Positions 4,051-23,500 of a stretch of 64,000 bases of DNA are shown in pieces. The translations under genes were made by a program, and so were the position numbers. Location: assembly GCA_964449585.1 (NCBI GenBank), contig CAYUZE010000001.1, forward strand, positions 140,142-204,141. Direction: 5' to 3'. The stretch is from an uncultured Gammaproteobacteria bacterium. GTDB taxonomy: Bacteria; Patescibacteriota; Microgenomatia; UBA10105; UBA927. Each line of letters starts with the position of its first letter. Positions within the stretch are counted from its first letter, which is position 1. The notes beneath the pieces were generated by a model. That model had not been told where the DNA came from. It did not search any database and saw nothing but the letters and a program-made list of their open reading frames with translations.

Positions 4051-4117
4051 ATCAAGGAGGAACAGTACCGCGAAGGGGTGGTGAAGTCTAGCGGATGAAT
4101 CTTATAAGGACAGGAGG

Positions 4118-4909: not shown

Positions 4910-4979
4910 ATGAGATTTGAGGCTAATTGCTCGCTTTAAGCTAGTGGAATTGATCGCTCGCAGCTATCACGATTAGCTT

Positions 4980-5195: not shown

Positions 5196-5196
5196 T

Positions 5197-8389: not shown

Positions 8390-8453
8390 GTTAAGAACAT
8401 TGTAGGGAGAAGCGTTGATGCAAACGATAGAGGTCTTACAAGGTGTTAATAAC

Positions 8454-9196: not shown

Positions 9197-9202
9197 TATA
9201 AT
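9197..9202 (+). promoter_or_regulatory. -10 TATAAT about 7 nt upstream of the res ATG at 9210 (possibly a leaderless transcript)
   Basis: TAGCGGTATAATGCAGTGTATGG; the first ATG of the track ORF (9201) lies inside the hexamer. Confidence 0.35.
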
Positions 9203-9209
9203 GCAGTGT

Positions 9210-12182
9210 ATGGCGGATAAAACATTTATTTTAAATTCTCCCTATAATGAACCGCTTTTCCATTTTAAGTCTGATGACCGCGGTTTAACGCCTGAAATAA
9301 ACGAGTTTCGTCGTCCAAGTAGCTTCTACATCCCAGTTCCTAAGGCCAAAAGTAAGAATAAGCAGATGGAGCTCAATATAGCTGAAGGTGCATATGGAAG
9401 CGAGATCCAACGCGACAACGTATTCATCAATCGCATACGAGAAAAATTATCGGAATGGCGAAAACAGAATTATCCTGGGCTGACAAAGACATCACGAGAC
9501 TTACTATTTTACTGGAACGATGAGAGTAGAACGAACAAGTTATTTTTTTGTCAGATTGAAGCGCTTGAGACTCTCATGTATGTCACAGAAGTGGCAGAAA
9601 AATCCGGTGAGGGATGGATTATAAATGAGCTTCGACAAAAGAATACAGAGGCAAACCCCGGCCTTTATCGTATGGCGTTTAAAATGGCTACTGGCTCGGG
9701 CAAAACAGTTGTAATGGCAATGATGATTGCCTACAACACTCTAAATAAAATTCGTTATCCAATGGATACGCGATTTACGGATGCGTTTGTGGTTGTTACT
9801 CCGGGAATTACGATTCGGGATCGATTAAACGTGCTTCTTCCTAATGATCCTCACAATTACTATCAACAGCGAGACATTGTTTCCTATCAGGATTTTGAAC
9901 TCCTTCAACAAGCAGTTGTTCACATTGTGAATTTTCAGCAGCTTGAACTCCGACAAAACCCTCGATATCAAATGGGAGGAGTGCTTAAAGCTTCAGGACT
10001 AATAAATGAAGCGGCCATTAAAGAAACACCTAGCGCTATGGTAAATCGAGTATTTAAGAGTTTACTTGGTAAGCCAAGAGTGCTTGTTCTTAATGATGAG
10101 GCACATCACTGCTATCGAGAGAAACCTATGGAGGCAAAATTAACTGGTGATGATCGAGAAGAAGCGGATAAGAATAATAAAGCTGCGCGGGTATGGATTA
10201 GCGGATTAGAAGCATTGTCGCAAAAAATGAATGTAAACGCCATTATAGATCTTTCAGCCACTCCATATTTTCTTCGCGGATCAGGCTATCCGGAAGGAGA
10301 ATTATTTCCATGGGTGGTGTCCGATTTTTCACTTCTTGATGCGCTTGAATGCGGGATAGTAAAGATTCCTCGGTTGCCAGTGTCTGCCGACAACATCACA
10401 GAAAATGATGAGCCGGAGTTTAGAAATCTTTGGCTCCACGTACGAGATGATCTTCCGAAGAAAGGTATTAAAACAGGAGGCTATGATTTAACAGTTTTAG
10501 TGTTGCCTACTAAATTGAGTGAAGCTTTGTTATCTCTTTATCGCAGTTATGAGGCGTATCACAAGGCGTATGAAGAAGCAAAGCAAAACAATCCTGGTGT
10601 TATGCCGCCGGTTATGATCGTGGTTTGTAATAATACGACTGTTTCCGAGCTTGTATATCGCTGGATTGCTGGTTACGAACGGGAATTACCAACTGGAAAA
10701 GTTTCGATTGAAAAAGGAAATCTGGATATTTTCCGAAACGAAGATGGGGTAAATTTTCTCGATAAACCGAATACGTTAATTATTGATAGCGAGCAGTTGG
10801 AGAGTGGTGAAAAGATTGACGAGAATTTTAAACGAATCTTCTCTAAAGAAATAGACGATTTTCATAAAGAGTACAAAAAAAGATTTCCCGGACGTGACGA
10901 TCCAACAGACGAAGAGTTGTTGCGCGAGGTTATGAACACTGTAGGGAAACCCGGTAAATTGGGAGAAAACATTAAGTGTGTAGTGAGCGTTTCGATGCTA
11001 ACTGAGGGATGGGATGTAAATACTGTTACACATATTCTTGGGATACGTGCATTTTCTACTCAGCTTTTGTGCGAACAAGTCGTTGGTCGTGCGTTACGAC
11101 GAATTGATTACACAACGGATGAAGAGACTGGATTAATGCGAGAAGAATATGCAGAGGTATATGGTGTACCGTTTAATTTCTTACGAGTTGAAGGCAACCC
11201 CAGCCCACAACCACCAAAAGTTATTCATCGTGTCCATTCCCTCGATGATCGAGAACAGTATCAAATAACATTTCCTAGGGTTCAGGGATATCGTTTTGAG
11301 CTGAATGAAGAAACATTAGCTGCTCACTTTACTGATGATTCCCGAACAATTATTGAGAATGAGCCTACGCAGATAACACTTGGAGGAATGATAGGTGAAG
11401 AGACCACCGAAAATATGGAAAAAATTAAAGAACGTCGGCAAGGTGAAGTTGTTACTCGTCTATCTGAGGCATTATTGAAAAGATACTATACTTCAGCCGA
11501 CGGGCAAGTAAAATATTGGTTATTCCCCCAAATTAAACGAATTGTAGAGGAATATGTGACTAAATATGTCGTGCTTAAAGACAAAATGGTTATTGGATAT
11601 CTGAGTGTAGGCGAGTACTTCTCCGGTGCGTTAACTAAGATTCAACAGGCAATTATCGCAGAAAATATTTCTCGAACCGACGAGAAAAAGATTTTACCAA
11701 TATTAGCACCATACGACTCTGAAGGATCAACCAGATACGTCGATTTCCTTACGACCAAAGAAGTGCGAGAAACAGTAAAAAGCCATATAAATTATGTGGT
11801 AGCTGACACAGAAGAATGGGAGCAGGGAGTTGCAAAAAAACTTGAAGAGATGCCGGAGGTATTGGCGTACGTTAAGAATCAAAATTTGGGATTTTCAATC
11901 CCATACGAATATGAAGGGATAAGTCGACAATACATAACTGATTTTATCGTAAAGCTGGAGATGCCTGATGAATCTATTCTTAACTTGCTTATTGAAGTTA
12001 CCGGCCTTAAAAGAGATAAAAAGGCAGTTAAGGTGAAGACCGCGAAAGAATTATGGATTCCAGCAGTAAATAATGCCGAACGATTTGGTAAATGGGCAAT
12101 TATTGAAATTCAGGATATCCATGAAACACAGCAGCTCATTCGAGCTGGTATGACACAAGGCTTTGTAAACGAGGTAAACTAG
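9210..12182 (+). CDS. res: Type III restriction-modification system, restriction (Res) subunit, SF2 helicase-nuclease
   Basis: Walker A MATGSGKT, DEAH box LNDEAHH, about 990 aa; followed 5 nt later by the mod gene. Confidence 0.85.
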   Translation: MADKTFILNSPYNEPLFHFKSDDRGLTPEINEFRRPSSFYIPVPKAKSKNKQMELNIAEGAYGSEIQRDNVFINRIREKLSEWRKQNYPGLTKTSRDLLFYWNDESRTNKLFFCQIEALETLMYVTEVAEKSGEGWIINELRQKNTEANPGLYRMAFKMATGSGKTVVMAMMIAYNTLNKIRYPMDTRFTDAFVVVTPGITIRDRLNVLLPNDPHNYYQQRDIVSYQDFELLQQAVVHIVNFQQLELRQNPRYQMGGVLKASGLINEAAIKETPSAMVNRVFKSLLGKPRVLVLNDEAHHCYREKPMEAKLTGDDREEADKNNKAARVWISGLEALSQKMNVNAIIDLSATPYFLRGSGYPEGELFPWVVSDFSLLDALECGIVKIPRLPVSADNITENDEPEFRNLWLHVRDDLPKKGIKTGGYDLTVLVLPTKLSEALLSLYRSYEAYHKAYEEAKQNNPGVMPPVMIVVCNNTTVSELVYRWIAGYERELPTGKVSIEKGNLDIFRNEDGVNFLDKPNTLIIDSEQLESGEKIDENFKRIFSKEIDDFHKEYKKRFPGRDDPTDEELLREVMNTVGKPGKLGENIKCVVSVSMLTEGWDVNTVTHILGIRAFSTQLLCEQVVGRALRRIDYTTDEETGLMREEYAEVYGVPFNFLRVEGNPSPQPPKVIHRVHSLDDREQYQITFPRVQGYRFELNEETLAAHFTDDSRTIIENEPTQITLGGMIGEETTENMEKIKERRQGEVVTRLSEALLKRYYTSADGQVKYWLFPQIKRIVEEYVTKYVVLKDKMVIGYLSVGEYFSGALTKIQQAIIAENISRTDEKKILPILAPYDSEGSTRYVDFLTTKEVRETVKSHINYVVADTEEWEQGVAKKLEEMPEVLAYVKNQNLGFSIPYEYEGISRQYITDFIVKLEMPDESILNLLIEVTGLKRDKKAVKVKTAKELWIPAVNNAERFGKWAIIEIQDIHETQQLIRAGMTQGFVNEVN

Positions 12183-12187
12183 TCATT

Positions 12188-14653
12188 ATGAGGAAAACCA
12201 AAATTAAGGCACCAACAGACGCCGCCCCAGTAACGTCGTATAAACACAAAGATACCCGCGTACGCATTCCCACGCAAGAAGAATCACAGGCACTTGCTCC
12301 TCGTGAGAAGCGCCCAGTAAAGAAGATTTACGAATATGATCCATCGCTCGATCCCCAATTAACTTGGGCGGGTAAGAGGGAGCAGGGATCACAATTTGGT
12401 GTTTCTACGGTTCCCATTTACCAACAGGAAAAGATAGCCCCAGAAGCCATTATCGCTCGACTTAAGCAAGGAGCAGCGCTTGATACACAATTAACATTCT
12501 TGGGTACGACAGCAACAGAGCAATTCGAGAAAGCAGTTTCCTTTTATGAGCACGAGGATAACTGGCAAAACAGGATGATTCTTGGTGATAGTTTATTGGT
12601 AATGAATAGCTTACTTGAGAAAGAACGAATGCGAGGGAAAGTGCAGACTATTTATATTGATCCTCCTTACGGGATTAAATTTGGATCAAATTGGCAAGTA
12701 AGTACTAGAAAAAGAGAAGTAAAAGAAAATAGAACTGAAGATTTTATAAGACAACCTGAACAAGTTAAAGCTTTCCGTGATACTTGGGAGCTTGGGATCC
12801 ACTCTTATTTATCCTATTTGCGAGATAGATTAACCCTTTCTAGGGAGCTATTAACGGAGAGCGGATCGTGTTTTGTGCAAATTAACGATGAAAACTTGCA
12901 TTTAGTTAGGTGTCTTATGGATGAGGTCTTCGGCACCGATAATTTCATCAGCGTAATTACTTTTACAAAAACTAGTGGTTTTTCATCAGGTTATGTAGAT
13001 TCTATATCTGATTACATTATTTGGTATGCAAAAGATAAATCTTTGACTAAATTTAGAAAATTATTTCGAAATAAAAAAATTGAAACCGATCCAAACTACA
13101 AATATATTGAGATGGCAAATGGCGAAAGAAGATTAATGTCAAAGGAAGAACGAAACGGAACAAAATCGTTGCCTGAGGGGTCAAAAATATACCGATTAAG
13201 CGATATTACTTCACAAGGTGCAGCTAAGGTATCTCAGGAATATATATTTAATGGGAAAAAATATGTACCTGGTGCCGGGGGACACTGGAAGGCAAATTAT
13301 CCGAATGGAATGGATAAATTGGCCAAATTAAAGCGCATCGAAACAACAGGTAATAATCTTGCCTATGTTCGTTATGCGGATGATTTTCCAGCTATTCCTA
13401 TCACCAATAACTGGACAGATACTAACATTGGTTTCGGTACTGACAAAATTTATGTTGTTCAAACGTTAAATACGGTTATTGAGCGCTGCATATTAATGAC
13501 AACTGATCCAGGTGACATTGTTTTAGATCCAACTTGTGGATCTGGTACGACCGCATATGTTGCAGAACAGTGGGGACGAAGATGGATTACAATAGATACT
13601 TCCAGAGTTTCATTAGCACTCGCGCGGACGCGCTTAATGACAGCAAAATATCCTTATTACCTTCTCAAAGATGAAAACATACGTAATGGATTTGTGTACA
13701 AATCAGTTCCACACATAACTCTTAAATCTCTTGCAAATGATGAGCCAGCCGAACAGGAGATTCTATATGACCAGCCTATCCTAAACAACGATATTATTAG
13801 GGTTGCCGGTCCATTTACAGTTGAGAGTTTATCGCCTCACAGAGTATCAGATGCACAGGAGATGGTTTCATCAGAAAATTTTGTGGAAACAGTTGTTTCT
13901 AATCTGTTGAAATCTGGTGTGCAAACGGGTAAACGTGAAGAGCGAATGGAATTTGTGAATCTGGATATCCTTCCAAGCGGTCCTGAGGTTCAAGCTGTAG
14001 GAGAATATAAATCCGCAGATGGATTAAGGAAGGTCGCAGTTTCTATTGGTCCTGAATTCGGCAGTATAGATGACGATTTTATACGCGATGCGGCGAGTGT
14101 GGCAAAGCGATTTGCTAGTTTGTTGGTTGTTGCTGGAACTTCTTTTGAAGCATCAGCATTTTCCGAACCATCCGACGTAAATGGATTGAGAGTCATGAAG
14201 GTCAAAATAAATCCAGACCTATCCATGGGCGATCTTTTGAAAAAGACAGGATCTGGAAATTTATTTCTCGCGTTTGGAGATCCAGATGTTCAAATGCGAC
14301 AAAGCAAAGAGGGGTATGTAGTTGAGGTTATTGGTGTGGATGTGTACGATCCCGTAAAAAGTGAAATTCGATCCAGCGGTTCGGGAGATCCAGATCATGA
14401 TATTGCAGCATGGTTTATTGACACGAATTATGATGGGCGAGCGTTCTTTGTCACTCAAGCATACTTCCCGGGTGGGAATAATCCTTTTGAAAAACTAAAG
14501 AAAGCACTCAAAGCGGATATTAACGAAGAAGTGTGGGATTCACTAAACTCCACAGTTTCACGTCCGTTCGCAAAACCATCAACAGGGAAAGTAGCAGTAA
14601 AAGTGATTAATCATTACGGCGATGAGGCGATGAGAGTTATAGATATAAAGTAA
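12188..14653 (+). CDS. mod: Type III R-M methyltransferase (Mod) subunit, N6-adenine beta class, 821 aa
   Basis: Motif IV IYIDPPYG preceded by GDSLLVMNSL; motif I DPTCGSGTTAYVA; long C-terminal target-recognition region. Confidence 0.85.
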   Translation: MRKTKIKAPTDAAPVTSYKHKDTRVRIPTQEESQALAPREKRPVKKIYEYDPSLDPQLTWAGKREQGSQFGVSTVPIYQQEKIAPEAIIARLKQGAALDTQLTFLGTTATEQFEKAVSFYEHEDNWQNRMILGDSLLVMNSLLEKERMRGKVQTIYIDPPYGIKFGSNWQVSTRKREVKENRTEDFIRQPEQVKAFRDTWELGIHSYLSYLRDRLTLSRELLTESGSCFVQINDENLHLVRCLMDEVFGTDNFISVITFTKTSGFSSGYVDSISDYIIWYAKDKSLTKFRKLFRNKKIETDPNYKYIEMANGERRLMSKEERNGTKSLPEGSKIYRLSDITSQGAAKVSQEYIFNGKKYVPGAGGHWKANYPNGMDKLAKLKRIETTGNNLAYVRYADDFPAIPITNNWTDTNIGFGTDKIYVVQTLNTVIERCILMTTDPGDIVLDPTCGSGTTAYVAEQWGRRWITIDTSRVSLALARTRLMTAKYPYYLLKDENIRNGFVYKSVPHITLKSLANDEPAEQEILYDQPILNNDIIRVAGPFTVESLSPHRVSDAQEMVSSENFVETVVSNLLKSGVQTGKREERMEFVNLDILPSGPEVQAVGEYKSADGLRKVAVSIGPEFGSIDDDFIRDAASVAKRFASLLVVAGTSFEASAFSEPSDVNGLRVMKVKINPDLSMGDLLKKTGSGNLFLAFGDPDVQMRQSKEGYVVEVIGVDVYDPVKSEIRSSGSGDPDHDIAAWFIDTNYDGRAFFVTQAYFPGGNNPFEKLKKALKADINEEVWDSLNSTVSRPFAKPSTGKVAVKVINHYGDEAMRVIDIK

Positions 14654-14655
14654 TG

Positions 14656-15267
14656 TTATTGAAGTTTGCCGATAACTTTCCCCTGGATCTGAAAATTATT
14701 TCCAATAAATGGTTTAAAACTGGAATCAGTACTCTGTGGTATGAGTAGACAAAAACCATCCATCATTTTAAATTTTTTAAGTGTTGCCTCACTTTCGTCA
14801 GCATTACATGCGACAACAACGTCACCATTGTTGGGAACTGATTGTGGTACGACGATAACGACGTCTCCAGGTAAATAGCCTGCCTTATCCATGCTATTTC
14901 CCTTAACTCGCAAGAGAAAGGCGTCTTTTCGACCATGAAGAAGAGAAAGTGGCACATCTCTCTGCTCTTCAATATTTTGTTCCGCGTAGGTTGGTGCCCC
15001 CGCTTGGATTTCGCCGACTAGGGGAATCTTTGTAGTTTTTTCGTTTTTGTCAATAATTTGGATTGCCCGCCTAGCGTGTTTATTGCGGCGAATATATCCA
15101 AGTCTTTCGAGCTTTTCGAGCTGGATAGTAACTCCACGAAGAGATTTTATGTCCGTTCCGTCGCGAATTTCGGGTATGGATGGGGCATATCCATTCCTTT
15201 GGTGATACTGGTTAACAAATTGGTAGACAGATGATACGCGACCTGAAAGGTGAGAATTGGTATCCAT
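14656..15267 (-). CDS. lexA: LexA repressor (S24 peptidase, SOS-type autocleaving repressor)
   Basis: Winged-helix N-terminus; Ala-Gly cleavage region IPLVGEIQAGAP; Ser motif VKGNSM; Lys in ATLKKF; C-terminal beta domain. Confidence 0.8.
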   Translation of the reverse strand: MDTNSHLSGRVSSVYQFVNQYHQRNGYAPSIPEIRDGTDIKSLRGVTIQLEKLERLGYIRRNKHARRAIQIIDKNEKTTKIPLVGEIQAGAPTYAEQNIEEQRDVPLSLLHGRKDAFLLRVKGNSMDKAGYLPGDVVIVVPQSVPNNGDVVVACNADESEATLKKFKMMDGFCLLIPQSTDSSFKPFIGNNFQIQGKVIGKLQ

Positions 15268-15330
15268 ATTTCTACTTATTGTATAATTCTACCAAACGGT
15301 GTATAAATATGCAAGTGGGTTGACTGACTG

Positions 15331-15354
15331 CCTCCGAACCCAGGAGGTTTTTTT
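15331..15354 (+). terminator. Intrinsic terminator-like hairpin CCTCC-GAACCCA-GGAGG followed by T7, in the lexA/15365 divergent region
   Basis: 5-bp GC stem, 7-nt loop, seven Ts; lies about 45 nt downstream of a TATAAT (15283-15288) and 10 nt upstream of the 15365 start. Confidence 0.4.
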
Positions 15355-15364
15355 GTAGAAAAAG

Positions 15365-15643
15365 GTGGTGATCAAGATGATATATGCAATTACATATGAT
15401 TTGAACAAAACAGGGCAGGATTATCCAGCCTTGTATCAAAAGATACAAAGTTTAGGAGAGACATTCCATGCGCTGCAGAATTTGTGGGTGTTAAGTACCA
15501 CATATAGCGGGGCAACTGTGCGCGATGAGATTCGTAAAGCGGTAGATGCGAATGATCATATATTTGTCGCACAGCTATACAAAGGCAGTTATTCAGCATG
15601 GATGCCGGTGACGGCGCATGACTGGTTGGAAGCGAGGTTATAA
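15365..15643 (+). CDS. Small hypothetical protein (92 aa); its pattern resembles the Cas2/VapD ferredoxin-like fold
   Basis: MIYAITYDL...GETFHALQNLWVL...DHIFVAQL aligns by eye with the Cas2 pattern M-L-V-YDV...GxRVQNSVFEC...DSLRIY; no Cas1 or CRISPR array nearby. Confidence 0.4.
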   Translation: MVIKMIYAITYDLNKTGQDYPALYQKIQSLGETFHALQNLWVLSTTYSGATVRDEIRKAVDANDHIFVAQLYKGSYSAWMPVTAHDWLEARL

Positions 15644-15645
15644 AT

Positions 15646-15885
15646 ATGACAAATTACAACGTTGTTAATAATCCGAACGGTGGTTGGGATGTAAAAAGAG
15701 ATGGTGCGGAGAGAGCAAGTGTGCACGCGGATACGCAAGGTGAGGCAGAATCTCAAGCGAAGGGTTTTGCTGGGAATTCAGGTGGTGGTGAGGTGCGTAT
15801 TCAAGGGAGAAACGGTCAGTTTCGTGACAGCGATACGGTTGCACCTGCACATGACCCATACCCGCCACGAGATAAAAAGCATTAA
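15646..15885 (+). CDS. DUF2188 domain protein
   Basis: VVNNPNGGWDVKRDGAERASVHADTQGEAESQAKGFAGNSGGGEVRIQGRNGQFRDSD matches the DUF2188 pattern (GGWxVK...S..H.TK.EA...A...A...G.E..IH..DG.I). Confidence 0.65.
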   Translation: MTNYNVVNNPNGGWDVKRDGAERASVHADTQGEAESQAKGFAGNSGGGEVRIQGRNGQFRDSDTVAPAHDPYPPRDKKH

Positions 15886-15897
15886 GGAAATGGTGAT

Positions 15898-16245
15898 ATG
15901 AAATCAACAATAAATACAGAAGGTAAAAGATATACCGTTGAAGTATTTATGATGAAACCTCTCGAAGGCGTCTATCGGTTCGGAGTTCAAATTTGGGGAG
16001 GCAGAGAAATATTCCCCTTCTCCATAAGGCTGCCCAAAAAGTTTATTGAAGATGAAATTGATGCAAATAATGATAAAGGATATTTGGAAAATCTCACAAT
16101 GAGAGTGGTGGTGGATCACCTAAAGGATATTCTTTCCCTCGATCGAAACGGTGTGATGGCAAATCTTATTTATTGGTTTAAGGATGCAAAGTATAAATAT
16201 GATGAGGAGGTGAAAGATGGAAATTCTTACAAAACCGCTCAATAG
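15898..16245 (+). CDS. Hypothetical protein (115 aa)
   Basis: ORF with AGGAAA-type ribosome-binding site; no family recognised. Confidence 0.4.
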   Translation: MKSTINTEGKRYTVEVFMMKPLEGVYRFGVQIWGGREIFPFSIRLPKKFIEDEIDANNDKGYLENLTMRVVVDHLKDILSLDRNGVMANLIYWFKDAKYKYDEEVKDGNSYKTAQ

Positions 16246-17524
16246 CTTCAGTTTCGATGATATCGTGTCTTTCCAAAAACAAAATCATGCCGAAGGCATT
16301 GAGTTAGATTATAAAAAAGTATTCCCTGATAAAGGATTGGCAAAGATTATCGCATCGTTTGCGAACACGAGAGGTGGGATGATAATTCTTGGAATAGAGG
16401 AAGATGAAAAAACTGGGTTACCCGTCAGCGCCAACGGCATTGTTCCTGATAAACATGATGACAGAGTATATCAGTACGTTGGAAATATTAATCCGATCCC
16501 AAAGGTTGTATGTCACACAACCAACGAGGTTCATGGTAAGGTATTTGTTTTGATCCGCGTATTTGAAGGCGATGAAACCCCATATTATGTTTATAACGAT
16601 TCAAATATATGGATAAGAACAGGGAATATAAGTAAGCCGATCGATATTGTTTCGCCAGAGGGCGCAGAGCTTCTATATAAGAAAAGTGAACGCGCAGAAA
16701 TTGGAAGGATACACAATTTAGACTCAGCTGAAGCCAATTTTCAGGCATTTATAAAGAGAGCGGAAAAACAACGAGTACGCGAGATCGAAATTGAAAAGGA
16801 GAACTACGAAATAAAGAAGGCTCACAATGAAGACGGGGATAGTTTTCCACCATTTAAATCCCAAATTTCTCAGTCGCCAGTCGGGAAGAATGTTTCGTTG
16901 TTAAAGATAATTGTGCAACCTTATTACCCACGTGGCGAATTTGTTCGTCCGTTGGATATTGAACCTATTATTGTTGACTCAAGAAGTCAAAATAACGTTT
17001 ATGAATTTCCAGCCAATAGAATGTACGAGTCTATTAAAGAGGGAATGATCTTTTTTGACTGGTCGCGACGTGATGGGGAAATACAATGTCAGCAAATATT
17101 TGCTAATGGGTTGGGATACAGCATCCATGACGTTTTACGTCCCATACCCGACGGACAATTGGTAACACACTTGGGTTGGTTTGCGGGAGAGCTTTATATA
17201 ACCTTGTCTGGAATGAGGAAGATATTAGAAAAATTTGGCTATCAGGGAGCGCTTATTGGTAAAGTGTCAATTGAAAACATAGAGGGTGTAATAATAAATC
17301 CAATAATAGAAAGAATGTTTCCTGGAGATACGAAGCCTTCCGTTTTTGCTCATCGAGCTTGGCCGTTAATACTCGATACAAGGATTTTATCCGAAACAGA
17401 CAAGCTTAGGGACTTTGTAACGGAATTGGTAAGGGATATTCACTGGGCGTTTGGCTATAAAGACGTTTCAAGGCAAATTTCAGCGAAATATCTAGTTGAT
17501 AAAGGGTATCTAAGAGAGACTTGA
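16217..17524 (+). CDS. Schlafen-like AlbA_2 (divergent AAA / putative DNA-binding) domain protein, 435 aa
   Basis: N-terminal FDDIVSFQKQNHAEGIELDYKKVFPDKGLAKIIASFANTRGGMIILGIEED matches the AlbA_2/Schlafen core; strong SD GAGGAGG; about 300-aa uncharacterised C-terminal region. Confidence 0.6.
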   Translation: MEILTKPLNSFSFDDIVSFQKQNHAEGIELDYKKVFPDKGLAKIIASFANTRGGMIILGIEEDEKTGLPVSANGIVPDKHDDRVYQYVGNINPIPKVVCHTTNEVHGKVFVLIRVFEGDETPYYVYNDSNIWIRTGNISKPIDIVSPEGAELLYKKSERAEIGRIHNLDSAEANFQAFIKRAEKQRVREIEIEKENYEIKKAHNEDGDSFPPFKSQISQSPVGKNVSLLKIIVQPYYPRGEFVRPLDIEPIIVDSRSQNNVYEFPANRMYESIKEGMIFFDWSRRDGEIQCQQIFANGLGYSIHDVLRPIPDGQLVTHLGWFAGELYITLSGMRKILEKFGYQGALIGKVSIENIEGVIINPIIERMFPGDTKPSVFAHRAWPLILDTRILSETDKLRDFVTELVRDIHWAFGYKDVSRQISAKYLVDKGYLRET

Positions 17525-17573
17525 GATTCGATGACTTTTGACTTAATAAACAAAAGGCTGTGTAATAGTTAGC

Positions 17574-18329
17574 ATGTCCCAATACTACAACCCAAATCGA
17601 ATTCGTAATCGATATGAAGCAGGCTCAGCAGATGCCTTCCGCTTGAGCCGGTCGAAGATTGACCTGTATATTAATTGTCCACGATGTTTCTATCTTGACC
17701 GCAAGCTCGGAGTGGGCCAGCCGCCGGGATATCCGTTTAACCTGAATTCAGCCGTCGATAAACTTCTGAAGAAAGAGTTCGACATTCATCGCGCCCACGG
17801 TACTAGGCACCCGCTCATGGAAAAATATGGCATAGATGCCGTGCCACTTGTGCACGAAAAGATAGAAGAATGGCGAGATTCATTGAGAGCCGGTATTACG
17901 CATAGGATAGATAGCACCAATGTTGTGATAACCGGAGGTGTGGACGATGTATGGGTAAATCCGGCTGGTGAGTACATTATCGTCGATTATAAATCCACAT
18001 CTAAAGACGCAGAGGTGACACTCGATGCCGATTGGCAAATCGGATACAAACGTCAGATGGAAATTTATCAGTGGTTATTCCGGAAGAATGGTTTCAAGGT
18101 CTCCTCAACCGGCTACTTTGTCTACTGTAATGGAAATACAGACAAAGAAGCATTTGACGCCAAGCTGGAATTTGATATCAAAATTATTCCGTATATTGGC
18201 GACGACTCATGGGTAGAAAAGACAATTTTAGAAGCCATAGAATGTCTCAAAGGCGAAGCGCTATCTGCGTCCGGAATAGATTGTGATTTTTGTAAGTATC
18301 GGAAAGCAGTAAAGCAATTTGAACAGTAA
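17574..18329 (+). CDS. Cas4-like PD-(D/E)XK nuclease with a 4Fe-4S cysteine cluster (RecB/DUF83 family)
   Basis: N-terminal CPRC and C-terminal C-x8-C-x2-C (CLKGEALSASGIDCDFC) cysteines; D...IVDYKST (D-x-K) nuclease motif. Confidence 0.7.
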   Translation: MSQYYNPNRIRNRYEAGSADAFRLSRSKIDLYINCPRCFYLDRKLGVGQPPGYPFNLNSAVDKLLKKEFDIHRAHGTRHPLMEKYGIDAVPLVHEKIEEWRDSLRAGITHRIDSTNVVITGGVDDVWVNPAGEYIIVDYKSTSKDAEVTLDADWQIGYKRQMEIYQWLFRKNGFKVSSTGYFVYCNGNTDKEAFDAKLEFDIKIIPYIGDDSWVEKTILEAIECLKGEALSASGIDCDFCKYRKAVKQFEQ

Positions 18330-18331
18330 AT

Positions 18332-19723
18332 ATGCCCAAAAAAACATTAGCCAAATTTGTTTACGACAAGCTTCAAGAGGGTAAGTGGCCGGGAGTCACT
18401 CTTGATGAAAAAAAACAATCCGTTCGTATTCCAAGTGGAGATATACTCATTTCAAAAAAGGGCAAATACCATTTTTATTTCTATTATTTTTCAATAGACA
18501 CGCGTCAATTTAATTTAAGAAGTGGGTACAGTGAGCTGATTTTTCCAAAGAACTTGGATATAAGAAAAGTTCTTTATTTTAAGACAAACGGGAATTACAA
18601 GATTAATAATGAGCGCCAGTTTAAGAAAGTAGTTAATCCCCTTGGTAAACATGTAAATAATATCAAACTCTCTACCACCTCAACAAATTTAAAATTCTAT
18701 AAAGATTCCCTGATTCTTCCGATCCGCGTGTTTAAGGATACGTTAAAAGACGCTGAATATATTAATACACGAAGTACTGCATACAGAAACTCCGCAGAGA
18801 ATTATTTGTCAAATATAAAATCCCACAAATACAGTAACAAGATTAAACGTAGAACAACATACATGGAGAAAGGCGAGTTTCGTTTTTTAGTAGACCGCTT
18901 ATATCTTAAATCAAAAGAAAACAAAAGTGATTATCTGAAATATCTCGACGAATATGACCTCAAAGGGATCGAGGAATTACTTAGTGAGTTATTAAGGCAT
19001 GACGTTCTCTCAAAGGATTTTTTGAGAGTACTTAATGATTTTTTTATTAAAGAGAAACTCAAAGATATTATTGCGTTAGGAAGAGAAATACTCGCACTAA
19101 AAACTACAAATCTTACTATCGCACCAGCACAACAAGTTATCACTAAACTTGGGTTGACGGAGGCGGGCCAGTTAGAGTCGCTTTGGCAAAAGTATTTTGA
19201 AAATTATCTCTTGTATTTGATATTTACTTATAAGAAAATTTTTCCAAAGGTGGTGCTGAAGAATATAGATGGAGATAAAAAATATCCTGACTTTATTGGA
19301 ATTAATCATTATAACGGCTTGGATGTTATAGAGATTAAAACCCATCTCAAAAACGCACTTATGTGGGATGGTAGTCATGAAAATTTTTATTTTTCTCCCG
19401 AAATGAGCAAGGCCATAGTTCAGACGACAAACTATATGGACGCAATTGTGCAGGTGAGATTTCAAAACGCAGATGATCAAACTAAAATTACCCAATCTAC
19501 CGACGAAGAAAATTTATATCACCCAAGAGGGATTATAGTGATTTCATCACAAGCAAAACTTACTACGAAAATGGGACAGGACGAAAAACTAAGAAGGGAT
19601 TTTACGAAATTAAGAAATAGTTTACACAACATTGAAATTATCACTTTTGATGAAATACTTAATATTGCAGATGAATATATAAAGAACATCGTGCCCGAGG
19701 AGGAAAATGAACGAACAAATTGA
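18332..19723 (+). CDS. Putative Shedu-like (DUF4263) PD-(D/E)XK nuclease, 463 aa, very AT-rich
   Basis: C-terminal PDFIGINHYNGLDVIEIKTH (D...E-x-K) then PRGIIVISS...NIEIITFDEIL; variable N-terminal domain; start 2 nt after the upstream stop. Confidence 0.45.
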   Translation: MPKKTLAKFVYDKLQEGKWPGVTLDEKKQSVRIPSGDILISKKGKYHFYFYYFSIDTRQFNLRSGYSELIFPKNLDIRKVLYFKTNGNYKINNERQFKKVVNPLGKHVNNIKLSTTSTNLKFYKDSLILPIRVFKDTLKDAEYINTRSTAYRNSAENYLSNIKSHKYSNKIKRRTTYMEKGEFRFLVDRLYLKSKENKSDYLKYLDEYDLKGIEELLSELLRHDVLSKDFLRVLNDFFIKEKLKDIIALGREILALKTTNLTIAPAQQVITKLGLTEAGQLESLWQKYFENYLLYLIFTYKKIFPKVVLKNIDGDKKYPDFIGINHYNGLDVIEIKTHLKNALMWDGSHENFYFSPEMSKAIVQTTNYMDAIVQVRFQNADDQTKITQSTDEENLYHPRGIIVISSQAKLTTKMGQDEKLRRDFTKLRNSLHNIEIITFDEILNIADEYIKNIVPEEENERTN

Positions 19724-20021
19724 TCAGCGAATTCGGAATATTCTTAGAGATCTTCATAAAGCCCACGAACGATCGATGCAGTTTAATGCCAAAGAATTGA
19801 AGCCAGGGGAACCAATCGTTCCGATGGACTTATATGATATGGCTTTAGCTTACGATGAAGAAGAGCGTCAACTTTTGTATTTGGAACTTGCTTACAGTGA
19901 AAAATATCCTCAACAATACTCAAAGGATCAAGTTGATGATATAAATAAACGAATAAACAAGTTGACTCATGATATCAGGGCTTGGCAGAATCGACAGATT
20001 CCGAGCGAATATAAAGAATAA
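19707..20021 (+). CDS. Hypothetical protein (104 aa)
   Basis: ORF overlapping the upstream gene end, coupled; no family recognised. Confidence 0.35.
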   Translation: MNEQIDQRIRNILRDLHKAHERSMQFNAKELKPGEPIVPMDLYDMALAYDEEERQLLYLELAYSEKYPQQYSKDQVDDINKRINKLTHDIRAWQNRQIPSEYKE

Positions 20022-20037
20022 ATTGGCATTTAGTCAT

Positions 20038-20451
20038 ATGGAATCATTCATTCTATTTTTTGTCATCTTAGCGCTTCACACTTATGTGTTTATGTTCCAA
20101 CGCGCGACGCTTACGATAGCGAGAGTTATAGAAATACTTCCTATTGCTCAGGTTCAGGCTATTTTAACTCCTAATTGGGTTGGTGCTATCGGCTGGATCA
20201 GTACGATTGGGTTGTATGCATCACTGGTATATATTTGGCTTCAGCATGGGTTGTTATGGGCGCTCGGTGCTTTTGTTGCTAGCCATCTTTTAACGGCAGT
20301 AATTCCTATTCCGTCGGTATATTTCTATAATCTTGTTCTTCGACATCTCACCAAAGAAATTAGTCGTGAAAAGGATAACGAAAAGAAAGAGATATTTGTG
20401 GAGCTTCAGGAAACCGTAAAGAAGATCAGTAAAAATTACAGGGTTACTTGA
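20038..20451 (+). CDS. Small integral membrane protein (3-4 TM helices)
   Basis: Hydrophobic helices FILFFVILALHTYVF, VGAIGWISTIGLYASLVYIWL, LLWALGAFVASHLLTAVIPI; start set at Met 20038 (track ORF starts at 19969). Confidence 0.4.
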   Translation: MESFILFFVILALHTYVFMFQRATLTIARVIEILPIAQVQAILTPNWVGAIGWISTIGLYASLVYIWLQHGLLWALGAFVASHLLTAVIPIPSVYFYNLVLRHLTKEISREKDNEKKEIFVELQETVKKISKNYRVT

Positions 20452-20489
20452 TTACTGATTTTTCCATTATTCTTCTGCGGTTACTCGAT

Positions 20490-20936
20490 ATGATTCTCAA
20501 CAAGACAGTGCTGATATTAGAAGACGATTTGCGAACGCTTTCCAAGATATTGGAGCGGTTAGCAGTTGTTGAAGAAGATCAGCCGTATGATTTTGCACTT
20601 ATCGTGCTTACAAGCCACCTTCAGGTGCAGGAGTATATAAACGATCACTCAAAAACCTCATTTGACATTATTCTTCTTGATCGGGATTGTAAGCTCGGTG
20701 GGTCATTCCATGTTCTTGATCTTGAGCGACTTGGCCCGGAAAAAGTGATTGCTATTTCTTCAGTACCTAAATGGAACGAAGAAGCGAAGAAGCGTGGTGT
20801 CACGCGAGTGGTACCAAAAGACTATCGCAACCTTGACGCATTTGCTTCAAAAGTTGCCGACGAAGTGTCAGCCATGCTTAAAGGATCCCAGGTAACAGAG
20901 GCGAGTATGCACCATATTTTTGATAAAGAGAATTAA
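20490..20936 (+). CDS. Stand-alone CheY-like receiver domain protein
   Basis: TVLILEDD acidic pocket, DIILLDRD phospho-acceptor region, AISSV...K; no output domain. Confidence 0.45.
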   Translation: MILNKTVLILEDDLRTLSKILERLAVVEEDQPYDFALIVLTSHLQVQEYINDHSKTSFDIILLDRDCKLGGSFHVLDLERLGPEKVIAISSVPKWNEEAKKRGVTRVVPKDYRNLDAFASKVADEVSAMLKGSQVTEASMHHIFDKEN

Positions 20937-21472
20937 GTAAGGAGAGGCGCGAGAGCCTCTCGTATCTTTGTTTCATTGTAAGTATTCGTCACAGGAAACG
21001 AGATGAAACGTATACCTGCTTTTGTAAGAACATTTTCGATCTTCTGATCTCTATTTCTTCGATTGAATTGCAGGTGTGACTTGCCATTCAGCTCTATCGC
21101 AAGAACGGGAGACATTGCTTGTTTATCAAATAACACAAAGTCTAAAGATAGATGATCAATATGTCGGTAGAGGTTGTCATGGTCTTTGACGTCATTTTTG
21201 ACATCGAGAATGGTTGCAAGTCGTGCCTGGGGGTAGATGTAATATTTGTCGCCATAGAGTTTTATAAGCACATCAAAGAGCTGTCGTTCATCAGCGCGCA
21301 TGATAGACGGCTTTTTAGTGAAAAATCCTCGGGCATCCGCAAGATCCAACAGTTCATCATGTATTTTGTGATATTTATCTTTGTAATAGATCGCTATCCA
21401 TGCAAACAGGACGATAAAGCCGATAAGGAGAGCGAGGGCAGTATTATTGAGCGTGGCAGTAAGTATTGGCAT
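20933..21472 (-). CDS. DUF2726 (NERD-like) domain protein with N-terminal membrane anchor
   Basis: HLSLDFVLFDKQAMSPVLAIELNGKSHLQFNRRNRDQKIENVLTKAGIRFISFP matches the DUF2726 core; N-terminal TM LALLIGFIVLFAWIAIYY. Confidence 0.55.
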   Translation of the reverse strand: MPILTATLNNTALALLIGFIVLFAWIAIYYKDKYHKIHDELLDLADARGFFTKKPSIMRADERQLFDVLIKLYGDKYYIYPQARLATILDVKNDVKDHDNLYRHIDHLSLDFVLFDKQAMSPVLAIELNGKSHLQFNRRNRDQKIENVLTKAGIRFISFPVTNTYNETKIREALAPLLT

Positions 21473-21496
21473 ACATTTACTATAGATCTTCCGAGA

Positions 21497-21502
21497 GTAT
21501 AA
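21497..21502 (+). promoter_or_regulatory. -10 TATAAT upstream of the 21517 gene
   Basis: AGAGTATAATCAAAGGGATTTTTATGG: hexamer, AAAGGGA SD-like sequence, ATG at 21517. Confidence 0.3.
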
Positions 21503-21516
21503 TCAAAGGGATTTTT

Positions 21517-22605
21517 ATGGATTACCTTCATCCAAAATCCTATTACGACGACCAGTATGATCTCCATACCATTGAGCAGTCTCTGGAATACTGGAGTGTC
21601 GGAAAGAAGATGCAGGAGAAACGGAGTGAATTCAAAGGGACGGACGAAGAATTTCAGCGGGAAACCCTGAAAGTCGTTAGCTACATGACCAACATTCTTA
21701 AGATTGAACGATTCCGTCATCGGACAGAGCAGATCGGGGAATGGATGGAAAGGGATAGGAAGATTCAGGAAGTGCTGGATATCGCAACACCGCCGGACGA
21801 TATCCGGTGTACGGCATGCTCTTCAGACACCAATATTACCTCCAGAGATCTCTTCGATGCTTACGACAAGCATCCGTACGTCCTATTTATGTTCGAGTGT
21901 ATAAAGTGTCATAAGCGACAGGCACTCTATGCAGACGGGCGACCATGGCACTACGAGCCATCCCGGTGTCCTAAGTGTAGTGAAGCGTTAGAAAGCACCG
22001 TGAAACACGGGAAGGATACCCTGACGACGATCTACACCTGTACGTCGTGTTCGTATTCCCGAAAGGATGTGGATGACTTTGCCAAATCCCGCAAGGAACG
22101 GGAAGCGAAGGAGAAACGGGATACAGAGTTACTGACCAAATACCGAAATGAGTTCTGTTACAGCGAGAAAGACGGGCAGGAAGCAGTACAGAGTATGGAT
22201 ACAATCGTTCGGGTTGTGGATGAGATCAAGGCCAAGGAGAAAAAGGAGGCAGATCCGGTGTATCAGCAGGCGATGAAGCTCAAAAAGATCAGTATCGTAG
22301 ATATGGAGAAGCTCATTGTGGATGCAGTAACCCCTCAGAAATATATCCGGTTTACCCTTGGGCAACCGATCATGGGACGATTTATTGAGGTTTCATTCAC
22401 CGTGCAGGAGGGGGATAGCAGTCGGCATGAGTACGACAGCCGGAATGAGCTCAGGAAACTTATCATTAAGGCGTTGGAAGGAACCAACTGGCGGCTCATG
22501 AGCGATGGAATAACCTTCCGGCTGGGCGTGTTAGCCGGACGCCTAAAGGGGTTAGAAAACCCCGACGATATAGCCGATTCACTTAAGCCCGAAACCGGCT
22601 CGTAA
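21517..22605 (+). CDS. Hypothetical multi-zinc-ribbon protein (four CxxC pairs)
   Basis: CTACSS...CIKCHK...CPKCSE...CTSCSY; the track ORF begins at 21466 and the start is set at Met 21517 using the promoter/RBS context. Confidence 0.45.
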   Translation: MDYLHPKSYYDDQYDLHTIEQSLEYWSVGKKMQEKRSEFKGTDEEFQRETLKVVSYMTNILKIERFRHRTEQIGEWMERDRKIQEVLDIATPPDDIRCTACSSDTNITSRDLFDAYDKHPYVLFMFECIKCHKRQALYADGRPWHYEPSRCPKCSEALESTVKHGKDTLTTIYTCTSCSYSRKDVDDFAKSRKEREAKEKRDTELLTKYRNEFCYSEKDGQEAVQSMDTIVRVVDEIKAKEKKEADPVYQQAMKLKKISIVDMEKLIVDAVTPQKYIRFTLGQPIMGRFIEVSFTVQEGDSSRHEYDSRNELRKLIIKALEGTNWRLMSDGITFRLGVLAGRLKGLENPDDIADSLKPETGS

Positions 22606-22607
22606 TC

Positions 22608-22766
22608 TTACTCATCTCGCCACACGTATTTGTATCCGATTGGCGCGATAGGCTTGATCGGCCGAATTGGTTTTATCGGCTTTATCGGTTTGATGGGTCG
22701 AATAGGCGGGATCGCTTTAATGGGTTTAATTTTGAATGGATTATCTTTCACTAAAGTCCACGACAT
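22608..22766 (-). CDS. Unannotated 52-aa proline-repeat peptide MSWTLVKDNPFKIKPIKAIPPIRPIKPIKPIKPIRPIKPIAPIGYKYVWRDE
   Basis: Hand translation of the minus strand; AAGGAGG (22771-22777) 4 nt before the ATG; stop TAA at 22608-22610; starts 13 nt after the HNH stop codon; (K/R)PI triplet repeated about 9 times. Confidence 0.45.
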   Translation of the reverse strand: MSWTLVKDNPFKIKPIKAIPPIRPIKPIKPIKPIRPIKPIAPIGYKYVWRDE

Positions 22767-22778
22767 ATTACCTCCTTA

Positions 22779-23060
22779 TTAAATTTTTGCAGTTACCGGA
22801 CAGACTAATGGTCCATCTTGTCTGGATGCGTTATTGTACCAGTGCAACGGTCGTAAGTTGGACAGCATATCAGAACCACCCGGAATGATATGGTCGATTT
22901 CCCAACCGTTGTTAAACTGTTCGGATCGGACACCATATTGATTCCTCGCGATGTATGCGCCACATACGTCCTTGCGTATCTGGTTTGGATCTTTCCCTGG
23001 GACAATTATGCCCTTTGCCCAAACTTGCTGGACGATCATGTCGTCGTATTGTTGTGCCAT
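22779..23060 (-). CDS. Small HNH endonuclease (93 aa)
   Basis: C..Y...WEIDHIIP...NLRPLHWYNN HNH motif; GGAGGTG ribosome-binding site before the ATG. Confidence 0.7.
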   Translation of the reverse strand: MAQQYDDMIVQQVWAKGIIVPGKDPNQIRKDVCGAYIARNQYGVRSEQFNNGWEIDHIIPGGSDMLSNLRPLHWYNNASRQDGPLVCPVTAKI

Positions 23061-23473
23061 GTGTAAGTCACCTCCTTTCGGTGGAAAAAAATTCTGACCC
23101 TAAGCGGAGAAGACCGAGGACGTGTAGTGGGATTACCTCTTGCCCGTTCTCGCTTACCCCGCCTTTGGCCGGTCGGAATAAGCATTTCTCTTCATTGAAA
23201 TACCTGAGTGGAGTGTAAGATTAGCAGACGATTCAGTCAACTGCTAATTTATATATCAAACACTATCAATTTTAAGATTCAGCCACAAAGGAAAGTAGAG
23301 ACACTCCCTTTCTGTGGTGTCTCATTTGTCTCATTTAGCCTCGGCTATGGGACACAATCTGGTACAATACCTTCTAGGAGTATAGAGGGACTATAGGGAC
23401 ATTAGGGTTCCAGACCCGTATGCTCCGCAAAATCAAAATGTTGTCCTGCCCGAAGCTGAGAGGGAACGGGATA

Positions 23474-23500
23474 ATAACCTAACTTTTTAGGTTATATAAT
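23474..23500 (+). promoter_or_regulatory. Perfect palindrome ATAACCTAA-cttt-TTAGGTTAT overlapping a -10 TATAAT upstream of the 23517 gene
   Basis: 9-bp inverted arms with a 4-bp spacer (23474-23495); TATAAT at 23495-23500; ATG at 23517. Confidence 0.4.

What the first reader, a model, noticed from the sequence alone, without database searches (positions are those of the whole stretch)
16217..19723. Candidate multi-nuclease defence module: Schlafen/AlbA_2-like, Cas4-like 4Fe-4S nuclease and Shedu(DUF4263)-like nuclease in one string
Three tightly spaced + strand genes. The first has an N-terminal Schlafen/AlbA_2 (divergent AAA) domain and a strong SD. The second is a Cas4/RecB-family PD-(D/E)XK nuclease with 1+3 cysteine ligands. 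The third (2-nt intergenic gap) has a C-terminal D...ExK core and an ...EIITFDEIL tail, typical of Shedu SduA (DUF4263), behind a novel N-terminal region. It is the most AT-rich gene in the window. Shedu is known as a single-gene system, and its pairing with a Cas4-like exonuclease and a Schlafen-like protein is not a described architecture as far as I know. The upstream Cas2-like/DUF2188 genes and the downstream receiver and membrane genes may belong to the same operon.
Basis: partly seen in the sequence, partly recalled or inferred. Interest (0 to 1): 0.7.

Follow-up and report, generated by a model that had tools for sequence, protein, structure and literature searches.

The report
Three unrelated nucleases in defence island
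The three neighbouring nuclease genes are real and correctly identified, but they are two known single-gene anti-phage systems (a bacterial Schlafen and a Shedu) sitting on either side of a nuclease gene conserved across the Patescibacteria, not one new three-part system.

Summary
ORFs at 16217-17524 (A), 17574-18329 (B) and 18332-19723 (C) match SLFN_AlbA_2, PDDEXK_1/Cas4-like and SduA_C. The SD, the 2-nt gap and the lowest GC in the window are all there. The "module" reading does not hold.

- **B** is a solo Cas4-family gene, 66-92% identical across Patescibacteria (at least 580 species genomes). Its neighbours differ almost everywhere: Gabija-, OLD-, GmrSD-, HerA-, Lamassu-like genes, or rpoBC. 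Exchange junctions fall at its start or stop codon.
- **C** is a stand-alone Shedu. Of 72 related loci, one carries B and none carries A. In a 91%-identical relative the 2.6-kb C cassette is replaced by other genes, starting at B's stop codon.
- **A** is a prokaryotic Schlafen with an intact E-x4-D-x-K motif and a weakly TBP-like C-terminal domain. Its conserved partners lie upstream (DUF2188, a 115-aa ORF, a divergent LexA), not B.

Best reading: a mosaic defence island holding two known single-gene systems and a conserved cellular nuclease, possibly co-transcribed.

Two by-products deserve follow-up. B's flanks look like a phylum-wide defence hotspot. A LexA/DUF2188/phrog_1090 cassette recurs upstream of both Shedu and Schlafen genes.

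The parts
14656..15267 (-). LexA repressor, divergent from the operon that carries A
   Evidence: TIGR00498 lexA equivalog, 156.5 bits against a cut-off of 110.95. The sequence shows an AG cleavage site, GNSM serine and a lysine. The same divergent arrangement occurs in L004 and L157.
15330..15355 (+). Terminator-like hairpin plus T7 run in the leader of the 92-aa ORF
   Evidence: Found by the consensus scan. The stem is conserved in L004 and L020 while the loop differs. There is no Rfam match and the fold energy is unremarkable. Function is unknown.
15365..15643 (+). 92-aa protein of family phrog_1090 (only a weak Cas2b resemblance)
   Evidence: phrog_1090 at 3.4e-21; Cas2b at E 0.007 only. 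Homologues lie in the lysogeny modules of temperate phages. Others lie directly upstream of C-family Shedu genes in L098, L100, L105 and L106.
15646..15885 (+). DUF2188 protein (PADLOC candidate PDC-S16)
   Evidence: PF09954, 73 bits; PDC-S16 at 1.6e-21; phrog_3220. It lies upstream of A homologues in L004, L157 and L160 (directly adjacent only in L160), and directly upstream of C homologues in L097, L098, L100, L105 and L106.
15898..16245 (+). 115-aa ORF that overlaps A's start by 29 nt; a partner specific to A
   Evidence: Conserved with the same overlap in L004 (91%) and L157 (54%). No family match.
16217..17524 (+). A: prokaryotic Schlafen (pSlfn). N-terminal Slfn RNase domain, long helix (aa 156-203), C-terminal alpha/beta domain that is a putative sensor
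17574..18329 (+). B: solo Cas4-family PD-(D/E)XK nuclease, conserved across Patescibacteria
   Evidence: PDDEXK_1, 51.3 bits; Cas4 below cut-off. All 8000 candidates scored were homologues, and the 120 best listed are 78-92% identical. At least 580 species genomes carry it at 66-84% identity across CPR classes. D125, D138, K140, Q161, Y165 and C35/C38/C237/C240 are invariant. Weak fold matches to Cas4 SSO0001, ACE1, MGME1 and RecE. Almost absent from IMG/VR.
18332..19723 (+). C: Shedu SduA nuclease with a family-specific N-terminal region (aa 1-280)
   Evidence: SduA_C, 75.3 bits; PADLOC SduA at 5e-17. 282 homologues, and the 120 listed mostly cover more than 90% of the query, down to 45% identity. 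D320/E334/K336 are invariant. GC 33.5%, the lowest in the window.
19707..20936 (+). Three small overlapping ORFs (104 aa; 160 aa, hydrophobic; 162 aa) that travel with C as one cassette
   Evidence: Present with C in L167 (88% nt identity, collinear with 18059-21590) and absent from L004. The 104-aa ORF also follows C in L085. No family matches.
20942..20961 (+). Terminator-like hairpin that ends the co-directional string 15365-20936
   Evidence: 7-bp stem with 5 GC pairs, directly after the stop codon of the 162-aa ORF.
20933..21472 (-). DUF2726 protein, convergent; right-hand backbone gene of the variable interval
   Evidence: PF10881, 84.8 bits. Conserved at this position in L004, L001 and L167.
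9201..14653 (+). Type III-like restriction-modification pair (Res 993 aa, Mod 821 aa) on the left of the island
   Evidence: ORFs. The collinear genes in L004 carry ResIII and N6_N4_Mtase.

Best explanation
The string is a mosaic defence island in a Patescibacteria (CPR) genome. It holds three separately inherited units, not one system.

**A (16217-17524)** is a prokaryotic Schlafen. By analogy with characterised pSlfn proteins, its N-terminal RNase domain (E26-x4-D31-x-K33) would cut tRNA once the C-terminal domain senses infection. That domain has only a weak TBP-like resemblance. A's real partners lie upstream: DUF2188, an overlapping 115-aa ORF and a divergent LexA. A is therefore probably induced by DNA damage.

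**B (17574-18329)** is a cellular solo Cas4-family nuclease with a metal or Fe-S site. It is kept at 66-92% identity throughout the phylum, and its likely role is DNA-end processing. Because it is so conserved, its two edges act as junctions where neighbouring cassettes are exchanged. Many of those cassettes are defence genes.

**C (18332-19723)** is a stand-alone Shedu nuclease. Its N-terminal domain would gate the D320/E334/K336 active site. With three small ORFs it forms a 2.6-kb AT-rich cassette inserted between B's stop codon and the DUF2726 gene.

Shown here: the family memberships, the intact motifs, the lack of co-inheritance and the cassette swap. Inferred: the enzymatic activities, LexA control, and co-transcription of 15365-20936.
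For: - **Families and motifs:**, with the motif definition.
- **B is phylum-wide and cellular.**
  - All 8000 candidates scored were homologues, and the 120 best listed are 78-92% identical.
  - 580 confirmed relatives in species genomes span Microgenomates, Parcubacteria, Saccharibacteria, Gracilibacteria and WWE3.
  - Only 2 partial hits in 2.9 million viral contigs.
  - In some genomes it sits beside ftsW-rpoB-rpoC or glycosyltransferases.
- **B's neighbours vary**. The gene directly upstream, at gaps of -4 to 72 nt (most 1-6 nt), is GmrSD, a UvrD/GajB-like helicase, type III Res, OLD, an SMC/LmuB-like ATPase or HerA, depending on the genome. The +-1 neighbours match 442 PADLOC families in 148 proteins, against 101 in 101 proteins at +-6.
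- **Exchange junctions sit at B's edges.** 2945 of 3005 locus pairs share DNA homology only inside B. Where one flank is syntenic, the homology edge lies within a few nt of B's start or stop.
- **The C cassette is swapped.** Window and L004 are collinear at 91% up to 18324, then diverge until 20943. L167 carries the cassette.
- **C is independent.** B occurs in 1 and A in 0 of 72 loci, and neither occurs at two closer homologues.
- **A is independent of B.** L157, L158, L160 and L162 lack B. DUF2188 lies upstream of A in L004, L157 and L160.
- **Literature:** pSlfn and Shedu are single-gene systems. Solo-Cas4 is known to be enriched in CPR and mostly vertically inherited.
Against: - The genes are tightly packed. 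B and C are 2 nt apart, which suggests translational coupling, and no terminator-like site lies between 15365 and 20936 apart from weak hits. They are therefore probably expressed together.
- A looser trio exists in one related genome: another Shedu subfamily, then B, then A (L001 = L010).
- B lies within two genes of C in L003 and about 0.8 kb from it in L093.
- The enrichment of DNA-targeting defence genes next to B could reflect function rather than a recombination hotspot.
- Most metagenomic C loci are short. Only 32 of 72 are 6 kb or longer, which limits the power to detect partners.
- Part of the PADLOC signal comes from generic ATPases, including housekeeping FtsK.
Confidence: 0.75

Rival explanations
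1. One reading: A, B and C form one integrated three-nuclease defence system, with B (Cas4-like) and A (Schlafen-like) as obligatory partners of the Shedu nuclease.
For: The genes are co-directional and tightly spaced, with a 2-nt B-C gap. A Shedu + B + A trio also occurs in L001/L010.
Against: In L001/L010 the Shedu belongs to another subfamily (27 bits to the C-family profile) and the gene order differs. The closest relative, L004, has A-B without any Shedu. Of 72 C-family loci, none has A and one has B. Four A-family loci lack B. Among 80 B loci, one has A.
Confidence: 0.06
2. B is a generic helper nuclease for whichever DNA-targeting defence system lies next to it, here Shedu. It would process or degrade the DNA ends those systems make or sense. 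RecBCD does this after restriction, and the Cas4-family protein ACE1 cooperates with Argonaute.
For: Unrelated defence genes sit immediately upstream of B, often within 1-3 nt, in many genomes, and defence families are enriched at +-1 compared with +-6. B is sometimes fused to, or followed by, an FtsK-gamma DNA-binding domain. There is a precedent for a Cas4-family accessory nuclease (abstract listed).
Against: Most Shedu, Schlafen and other defence loci sampled lack B nearby. In other genomes B sits among housekeeping genes. Its extreme conservation and mostly vertical pattern fit a core cellular role. A single-copy helper would not need to be adjacent to its partners.
Confidence: 0.15
3. The whole stretch from about 2.7 to 21.5 kb is cargo of a degraded prophage or integrative element. 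The LexA-like gene would be the element's own S24 repressor, and A, C and the small ORFs would be morons expressed from the immunity region.
For: A large serine recombinase (2725-4050) lies beside a tRNA-Ser cluster, with a terminase large subunit, a small HTH protein and a ParB-methylase. The 92-aa and DUF2188 proteins belong to phage families. Homologues of the 92-aa protein lie in phage lysogeny modules next to CI/ImmA and serine integrases. Shedu is often found in prophages and transposons.
Against: B is a cellular gene that is almost absent from viral contigs. The LexA passes the equivalog cut-off for true LexA. No att-like direct repeats were found. No structural phage genes were seen beyond the terminase. 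This reading does not exclude the best explanation.
Confidence: 0.2

Closest known systems
Shedu (SduA, DUF4263), e.g. Bacillus cereus SduA
   Same: C-terminal SduA_C PD-(D/E)XK domain with D...ExK, a variable N-terminal domain, a single-gene system, and a location in a defence island next to R-M genes.
   Different: The N-terminal 280 aa match no Pfam family and are specific to a Patescibacteria-centred family of about 280 clusters. The family profile finds no solved structure by sequence. In several lineages the gene follows a LexA/DUF2188/phrog_1090 cassette or a Zn-ribbon protein. The section of the Shedu survey that I read, on operon organisation, does not mention this.
Prokaryotic Schlafen defence proteins (pSlfn; RorSlfn5, EcoSlfn7; the pSlfn-TBP-like class)
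   Same: N-terminal Slfn RNase domain with Ex4(E/D)xK, fused to a C-terminal putative sensor, about 430 aa, in a defence island.
Solo-Cas4 of CPR bacteria and DPANN archaea (Hudaiberdiev et al. 2017)
   Same: A Cas4/RecB-like nuclease outside any CRISPR locus, common in small-genome CPR bacteria, mostly vertically inherited, function unknown.
   Different: B matches PF12705 rather than the Cas4 equivalog, and its cysteines form CxxC...CxxC. Its very high conservation and the defence-rich, exchange-prone flanks did not appear in the passages of that paper that I read.
CapH/CapP-regulated operons and DUF2188 operons (Lau et al. 2022; Burroughs & Aravind 2020)
   Same: DUF2188 genes sit next to a DNA-damage-responsive, protease-dependent repressor placed upstream of, and often divergent from, a defence operon.
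   Different: Here the repressor is a LexA-type S24 self-cleaving protein rather than an HTH plus metallopeptidase pair. The effectors are Schlafen or Shedu nucleases.

Membership tests
Shedu (SduA) | C-terminal DUF4263/SduA_C nuclease domain above the curated threshold | tested here: met
   PF14082, 75.3 bits against 27, aa 282-443. Eleven PADLOC SduA models match, the best at 4.8e-17.
Shedu (SduA) | Intact PD-(D/E)XK catalytic residues | tested here: met
   D320, E334 and K336 are invariant in 26 family members.
Shedu (SduA) | Works as a single gene, with no obligatory conserved partner | tested here: met
   No neighbour is shared by more than 13 of 67 loci. B occurs in 1 of 72 and A in 0 of 72. 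A LexA/DUF2188/phrog_1090 cassette lies upstream in 9 of 39 loci with enough flank, so it is optional.
Shedu (SduA) | Anti-phage activity and an oligomeric, sensor-gated nuclease | not testable with these tools
   Needs phage-challenge assays and biochemistry.
Prokaryotic Schlafen (pSlfn) | Slfn/AlbA_2 nuclease domain | tested here: met
Prokaryotic Schlafen (pSlfn) | Catalytic Ex4(E/D)xK motif | tested here: met
   E26-G-I-E-L-D31-Y-K33. E26 and K33 are invariant and position 31 is D or E in 36 sequences.
Prokaryotic Schlafen (pSlfn) | Fusion to a sensor domain of a described class (TBP-like) | tested here: inconclusive
Prokaryotic Schlafen (pSlfn) | Phage-triggered tRNA cleavage | not testable with these tools
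   Needs biochemistry.
CRISPR-associated Cas4 | Score above the Cas4 equivalog cut-off | tested here: not met
   TIGR00372, 32.8 bits against a cut-off of 65.
CRISPR-associated Cas4 | Location beside cas1/cas2 or a CRISPR array | tested here: not met
   No cas1 was found among the neighbours scanned. The only direct-repeat family in 1-40000 is a tRNA pair. The Cas2b hit of the 92-aa ORF is weak (E 0.007).
Solo Cas4-family / RecB-like PD-(D/E)XK nuclease | RecB-type motifs and four conserved cysteines | tested here: met
   PDDEXK_1, 51.3 bits. D125, D138-x-K140, Q161...Y165 and C35, C38, C237, C240 are invariant. Weak fold matches to Cas4 SSO0001, ACE1, MGME1, RecE and EXO5 from a low-confidence model (pLDDT 63). 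Whether the site holds Fe-S or Zn is not testable here.
   The exact trio recurs only in a near-identical relative (L167, where B is partial and A lies off the contig). A different trio occurs in L001/L010.
LexA | LexA equivalog score and self-cleavage residues | tested here: met
   TIGR00498, 156.5 bits against 110.95. The translation shows QAG|AP, GNSM and TLKK. No operator motif could be defined.

The most novel reading that the evidence does not exclude
Two linked ideas survive the evidence.

(i) The ultra-conserved Cas4-like gene B marks a phylum-wide hotspot in Patescibacteria. Unrelated defence cassettes are exchanged exactly at its start and stop codons. Either B serves as a universal homology arm for recombination in these naturally competent bacteria, or it is a shared helper nuclease for the adjacent systems.

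(ii) A portable LexA / DUF2188 / phrog_1090 cassette places single-gene nucleases of different families (Shedu, Schlafen) under DNA-damage control. This would parallel CapH/CapP.
Probability: 0.3. Interest if true: 0.6.

Novelty: new member of a known kind. Interest (0 to 1): 0.3.

Why it matters
As stated, the finding would have been a new multi-nuclease immune system, and the evidence says it is not. It is a typical mosaic defence island holding CPR members of two recently characterised single-gene systems.

What could matter is the context. Patescibacteria largely lack CRISPR, and their immunity is poorly mapped. If the gene's flanks reliably collect defence cassettes, it would give a simple anchor for mining new systems in these uncultured bacteria. 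A LexA-linked small-protein cassette shared by Shedu and Schlafen genes would point to DNA-damage-coupled control of innate immunity in bacteria with minimal genomes.

Tried and rejected
- **LexA operator:** I searched 12 lexA upstream regions for a shared palindromic operator. Nothing was shared beyond the close relatives.
- **att repeats:** No att-like direct repeats of 24 nt or more were found in 1-40000 for the serine-recombinase element. Only a tRNA-Arg pair came up.
- **Solved structures:** Sequence searches found nothing for B or for the C-family profile.
- **Model of B:** The AlphaFold model was poor (pLDDT 63, shallow alignment at about 80% identity). Fold matches are only qualitative, and the cysteine geometry could not be checked.
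- **'mad8'/'mad3' hits:** PADLOC hits of these families among B's neighbours first looked like a MADS association. They are generic FtsK/HerA and SMC-type ATPase matches, some from housekeeping FtsK, so I did not count them as defence.
- **B as a phage gene:** A phrog_31195 hit suggested this. I rejected it because only 2 partial matches exist in IMG/VR.
- **RNA elements:** Rfam found nothing in 14000-23500, and the leader hairpin's fold energy is unexceptional.
- **Cas2/Cas4 remnant:** I rejected a CRISPR adaptation remnant (92-aa ORF plus B) because both scores are sub-threshold and there is no array or cas1.
- **Representative search:** The 50%-identity search for B shows a broad family (302 clusters at E<=1e-30) but carries no taxonomy, so it added little.

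Full report
**1. What is in the sequence**

ORFs A (16217-17524, 435 aa), B (17574-18329, 251 aa) and C (18332-19723, 463 aa) are present on the + strand.

- A matches SLFN_AlbA_2 over aa 26-142 (55.8 bits, cut-off 25.3).
- B matches PDDEXK_1 (51.3 bits), and Cas4 models only below the curated cut-off (TIGR00372, 32.8 against 65).
- C matches SduA_C over aa 282-443 (75.3 bits) and eleven PADLOC SduA models.

The AGGAGGTG before A, the 49-nt A-B gap and the 2-nt B-C gap can be read directly from the sequence. C has the lowest GC of 41 ORFs (33.5% against 45% for the window).

Two details need correcting. B's invariant cysteines are CxxC...CxxC (C35, C38, C237, C240) plus C185, not 1+3. The upstream 92-aa ORF resembles Cas2 only weakly (E 0.007) but clearly belongs to phrog_1090.

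**2. Organism and setting**

Named homologues of all three proteins come from Patescibacteria/CPR metagenome-assembled genomes. The string lies in a defence-rich stretch with these parts:

- a type III-like Res/Mod pair (9201-14653);
- a LexA (14656-15267, minus strand; TIGR00498, 156.5 bits);
- the 92-aa ORF, a DUF2188 protein (PADLOC PDC-S16) and a 115-aa ORF that overlaps A;
- A, B and C;
- three small ORFs, a terminator-like hairpin at 20942-20961, and a convergent DUF2726 gene.

Further left lie a large serine recombinase beside a tRNA-Ser cluster, a terminase and a ParB-methylase.

**3. B is a phylum-wide cellular gene with exchange-prone flanks**

All 8000 candidates scored were homologues, and the 120 best listed are 78-92% identical to B. 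The best 80 are 66-84% identical and span Microgenomates, Parcubacteria, Saccharibacteria, Gracilibacteria, WWE3 and others, with the closest matches in Microgenomates. In contrast, 2.9 million viral contigs gave two partial hits.

The neighbours differ from genome to genome. The gene directly upstream is a GmrSD, a UvrD/GajB-like helicase, a type III Res, an OLD nuclease, an SMC/LmuB-like ATPase or a HerA, depending on the genome. The gaps range from -4 to 72 nt, and most are 1-6 nt. Recurrent families at +-1 include Trypsin_2 (6), AAA_15/AAA_21 (5-6), FtsK (5), FtsK_gamma (4), GmrSD (3), SduA_C (2) and SLFN_AlbA_2 (2). The +-1 set matches 442 PADLOC families in 148 proteins, against 101 in 101 proteins at +-6. 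Part of this signal comes from generic ATPases.

In other genomes B sits beside ftsW-rpoB-rpoC or glycosyltransferases. At the DNA level, 2945 of 3005 locus pairs share homology only inside B. Where one flank is syntenic, the homology edge falls within a few nucleotides of B's start or stop (L013/L016, L009/L011, L004/window).

A survey of Cas4 already reported that solo-Cas4 is over-represented in CPR genomes, mostly vertically inherited and of unknown function. The model of B is poor (pLDDT 63). Its best fold matches are Cas4 SSO0001, ACE1, MGME1 and RecE.

**4. C is a stand-alone Shedu on a swapped cassette**

The C family has 282 clusters. The 120 listed mostly cover more than 90% of the query, down to 45% identity, and D320/E334/K336 are invariant.

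Of 72 metagenomic loci, one contains B and none contains A. Loci of two homologues at 67-68% identity contain neither. In L003, B lies two genes upstream of a 54%-identical C.

The window and its closest relative L004 are collinear at 91% nt identity up to position 18324. They then diverge until 20943. L004 has an FtsK-gamma gene and two other ORFs in place of C and the three small ORFs. L167 carries the same cassette as the window (88% nt identity). The low GC fits recent acquisition.

Shedu is described as a single-gene system with many N-terminal sensor types, often next to R-M systems, transposons or prophages.

**5. A is a prokaryotic Schlafen whose partners lie upstream**

Neighbourhoods of A homologues:
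- L004: LexA(-) | 92-aa ORF, DUF2188, 115-aa ORF, A, B.
- L157: LexA(-) | DUF2188, 113-aa ORF, A, with no B.
- L160: DUF2188, A, with no B.
- L158 and L162: none of these.
- L001 = L010: a different Shedu, then B, then A.

**6. A recurrent LexA/DUF2188/phrog_1090 cassette**

Homologues of the LexA, DUF2188 and 92-aa proteins lie directly upstream of C-family Shedu genes, on the same strand. This holds in 9 of 39 loci with enough upstream sequence, counting the window itself, where the cassette lies 2.1-3.1 kb upstream. These loci belong to at least two Shedu lineages. L140, a partial C locus outside this count, also carries the cassette.

DUF2188 has been linked to defence and to CapH/CapP-type damage-responsive regulators. 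Homologues of the 92-aa protein lie in the lysogeny modules of temperate phages, next to CI/ImmA-type repressors and serine integrases. A 379-aa Zn-ribbon protein (21466-22605) also recurs directly upstream of Shedu genes in five other loci.

I could not define a LexA operator.

**7. Conclusion**

The trio is not a conserved module. It consists of a pSlfn unit with its own upstream partners, a conserved cellular Cas4-family gene, and a Shedu cassette, juxtaposed at an exchange-prone site. Co-transcription from the LexA-adjacent promoter is plausible but only inferred.

The main residual doubts are the tight coupling of B and C, the looser trio in L001/L010, and the possibility that B cooperates with neighbouring DNA-targeting systems.

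Noticed in passing
window 17574-18329 and loci L005-L084: The flanks of the conserved Cas4-like gene B hold different defence genes in different Patescibacteria species (GmrSD, Gabija-like, OLD, HerA, Lamassu-like, type III R-M, Shedu, Schlafen). Homology breakpoints fall exactly at B's start or stop codon. This may be a phylum-wide defence hotspot.
   Followed up: partly
window 14656-15885; L097, L098, L100, L102, L104, L105, L106, L090, L140: A LexA-like repressor, a DUF2188 protein and a phrog_1090 protein recur directly upstream of C-family Shedu genes elsewhere. DUF2188, with or without LexA, also lies upstream of A-family Schlafen genes. This suggests a portable regulatory cassette.
   Followed up: partly
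window 21466-22605; L109, L110, L111, L113, L145, L090, L104: A 379-aa protein with four CxxC pairs and no family match has homologues within 2-21 nt upstream of Shedu genes in four other loci (L109, L110, L111, L113). In L145, L090 and L104 a homologue lies near the Shedu gene.
   Followed up: no
L003, L009, L013, L018, L023 (and other B loci): A Trypsin_2 protease of about 428 aa directly follows B in several genomes. B plus this gene are conserved together at about 70% nt identity. Some B homologues are fused to, or followed by, an FtsK-gamma domain (P0144, P0167, L004).
   Followed up: partly
window 1790-9149: A large serine recombinase (2725-4050), an Exo_endo_phos nuclease, a terminase large subunit (5197-6642), a small HTH protein and a ParB-methylase fusion (7052-8503) lie on the minus strand beside three tRNA-Ser genes. 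This looks like a degraded prophage or integrative element bordering the defence island.
   Followed up: partly
window 2468-2551: ARAGORN calls a tRNA-Ser with the unusual anticodon ACT, 4 nt after a tRNA-Ser(TGA). The window holds seven tRNA genes, all Ser or Arg.
   Followed up: no
window 15330-15355: A GC-rich hairpin followed by T7 lies just upstream of the 92-aa ORF's ribosome-binding site. Its stem is conserved in L004 and L020 while the loop differs. It may be a leader attenuator. No Rfam match.
   Followed up: partly
window 22779-23060 (minus strand): A 93-aa ORF whose sequence looks to me like an HNH-type motif (…EIDHIIPGG…NLRPLHWYNN…). No Pfam match at E <= 0.01.
   Followed up: no
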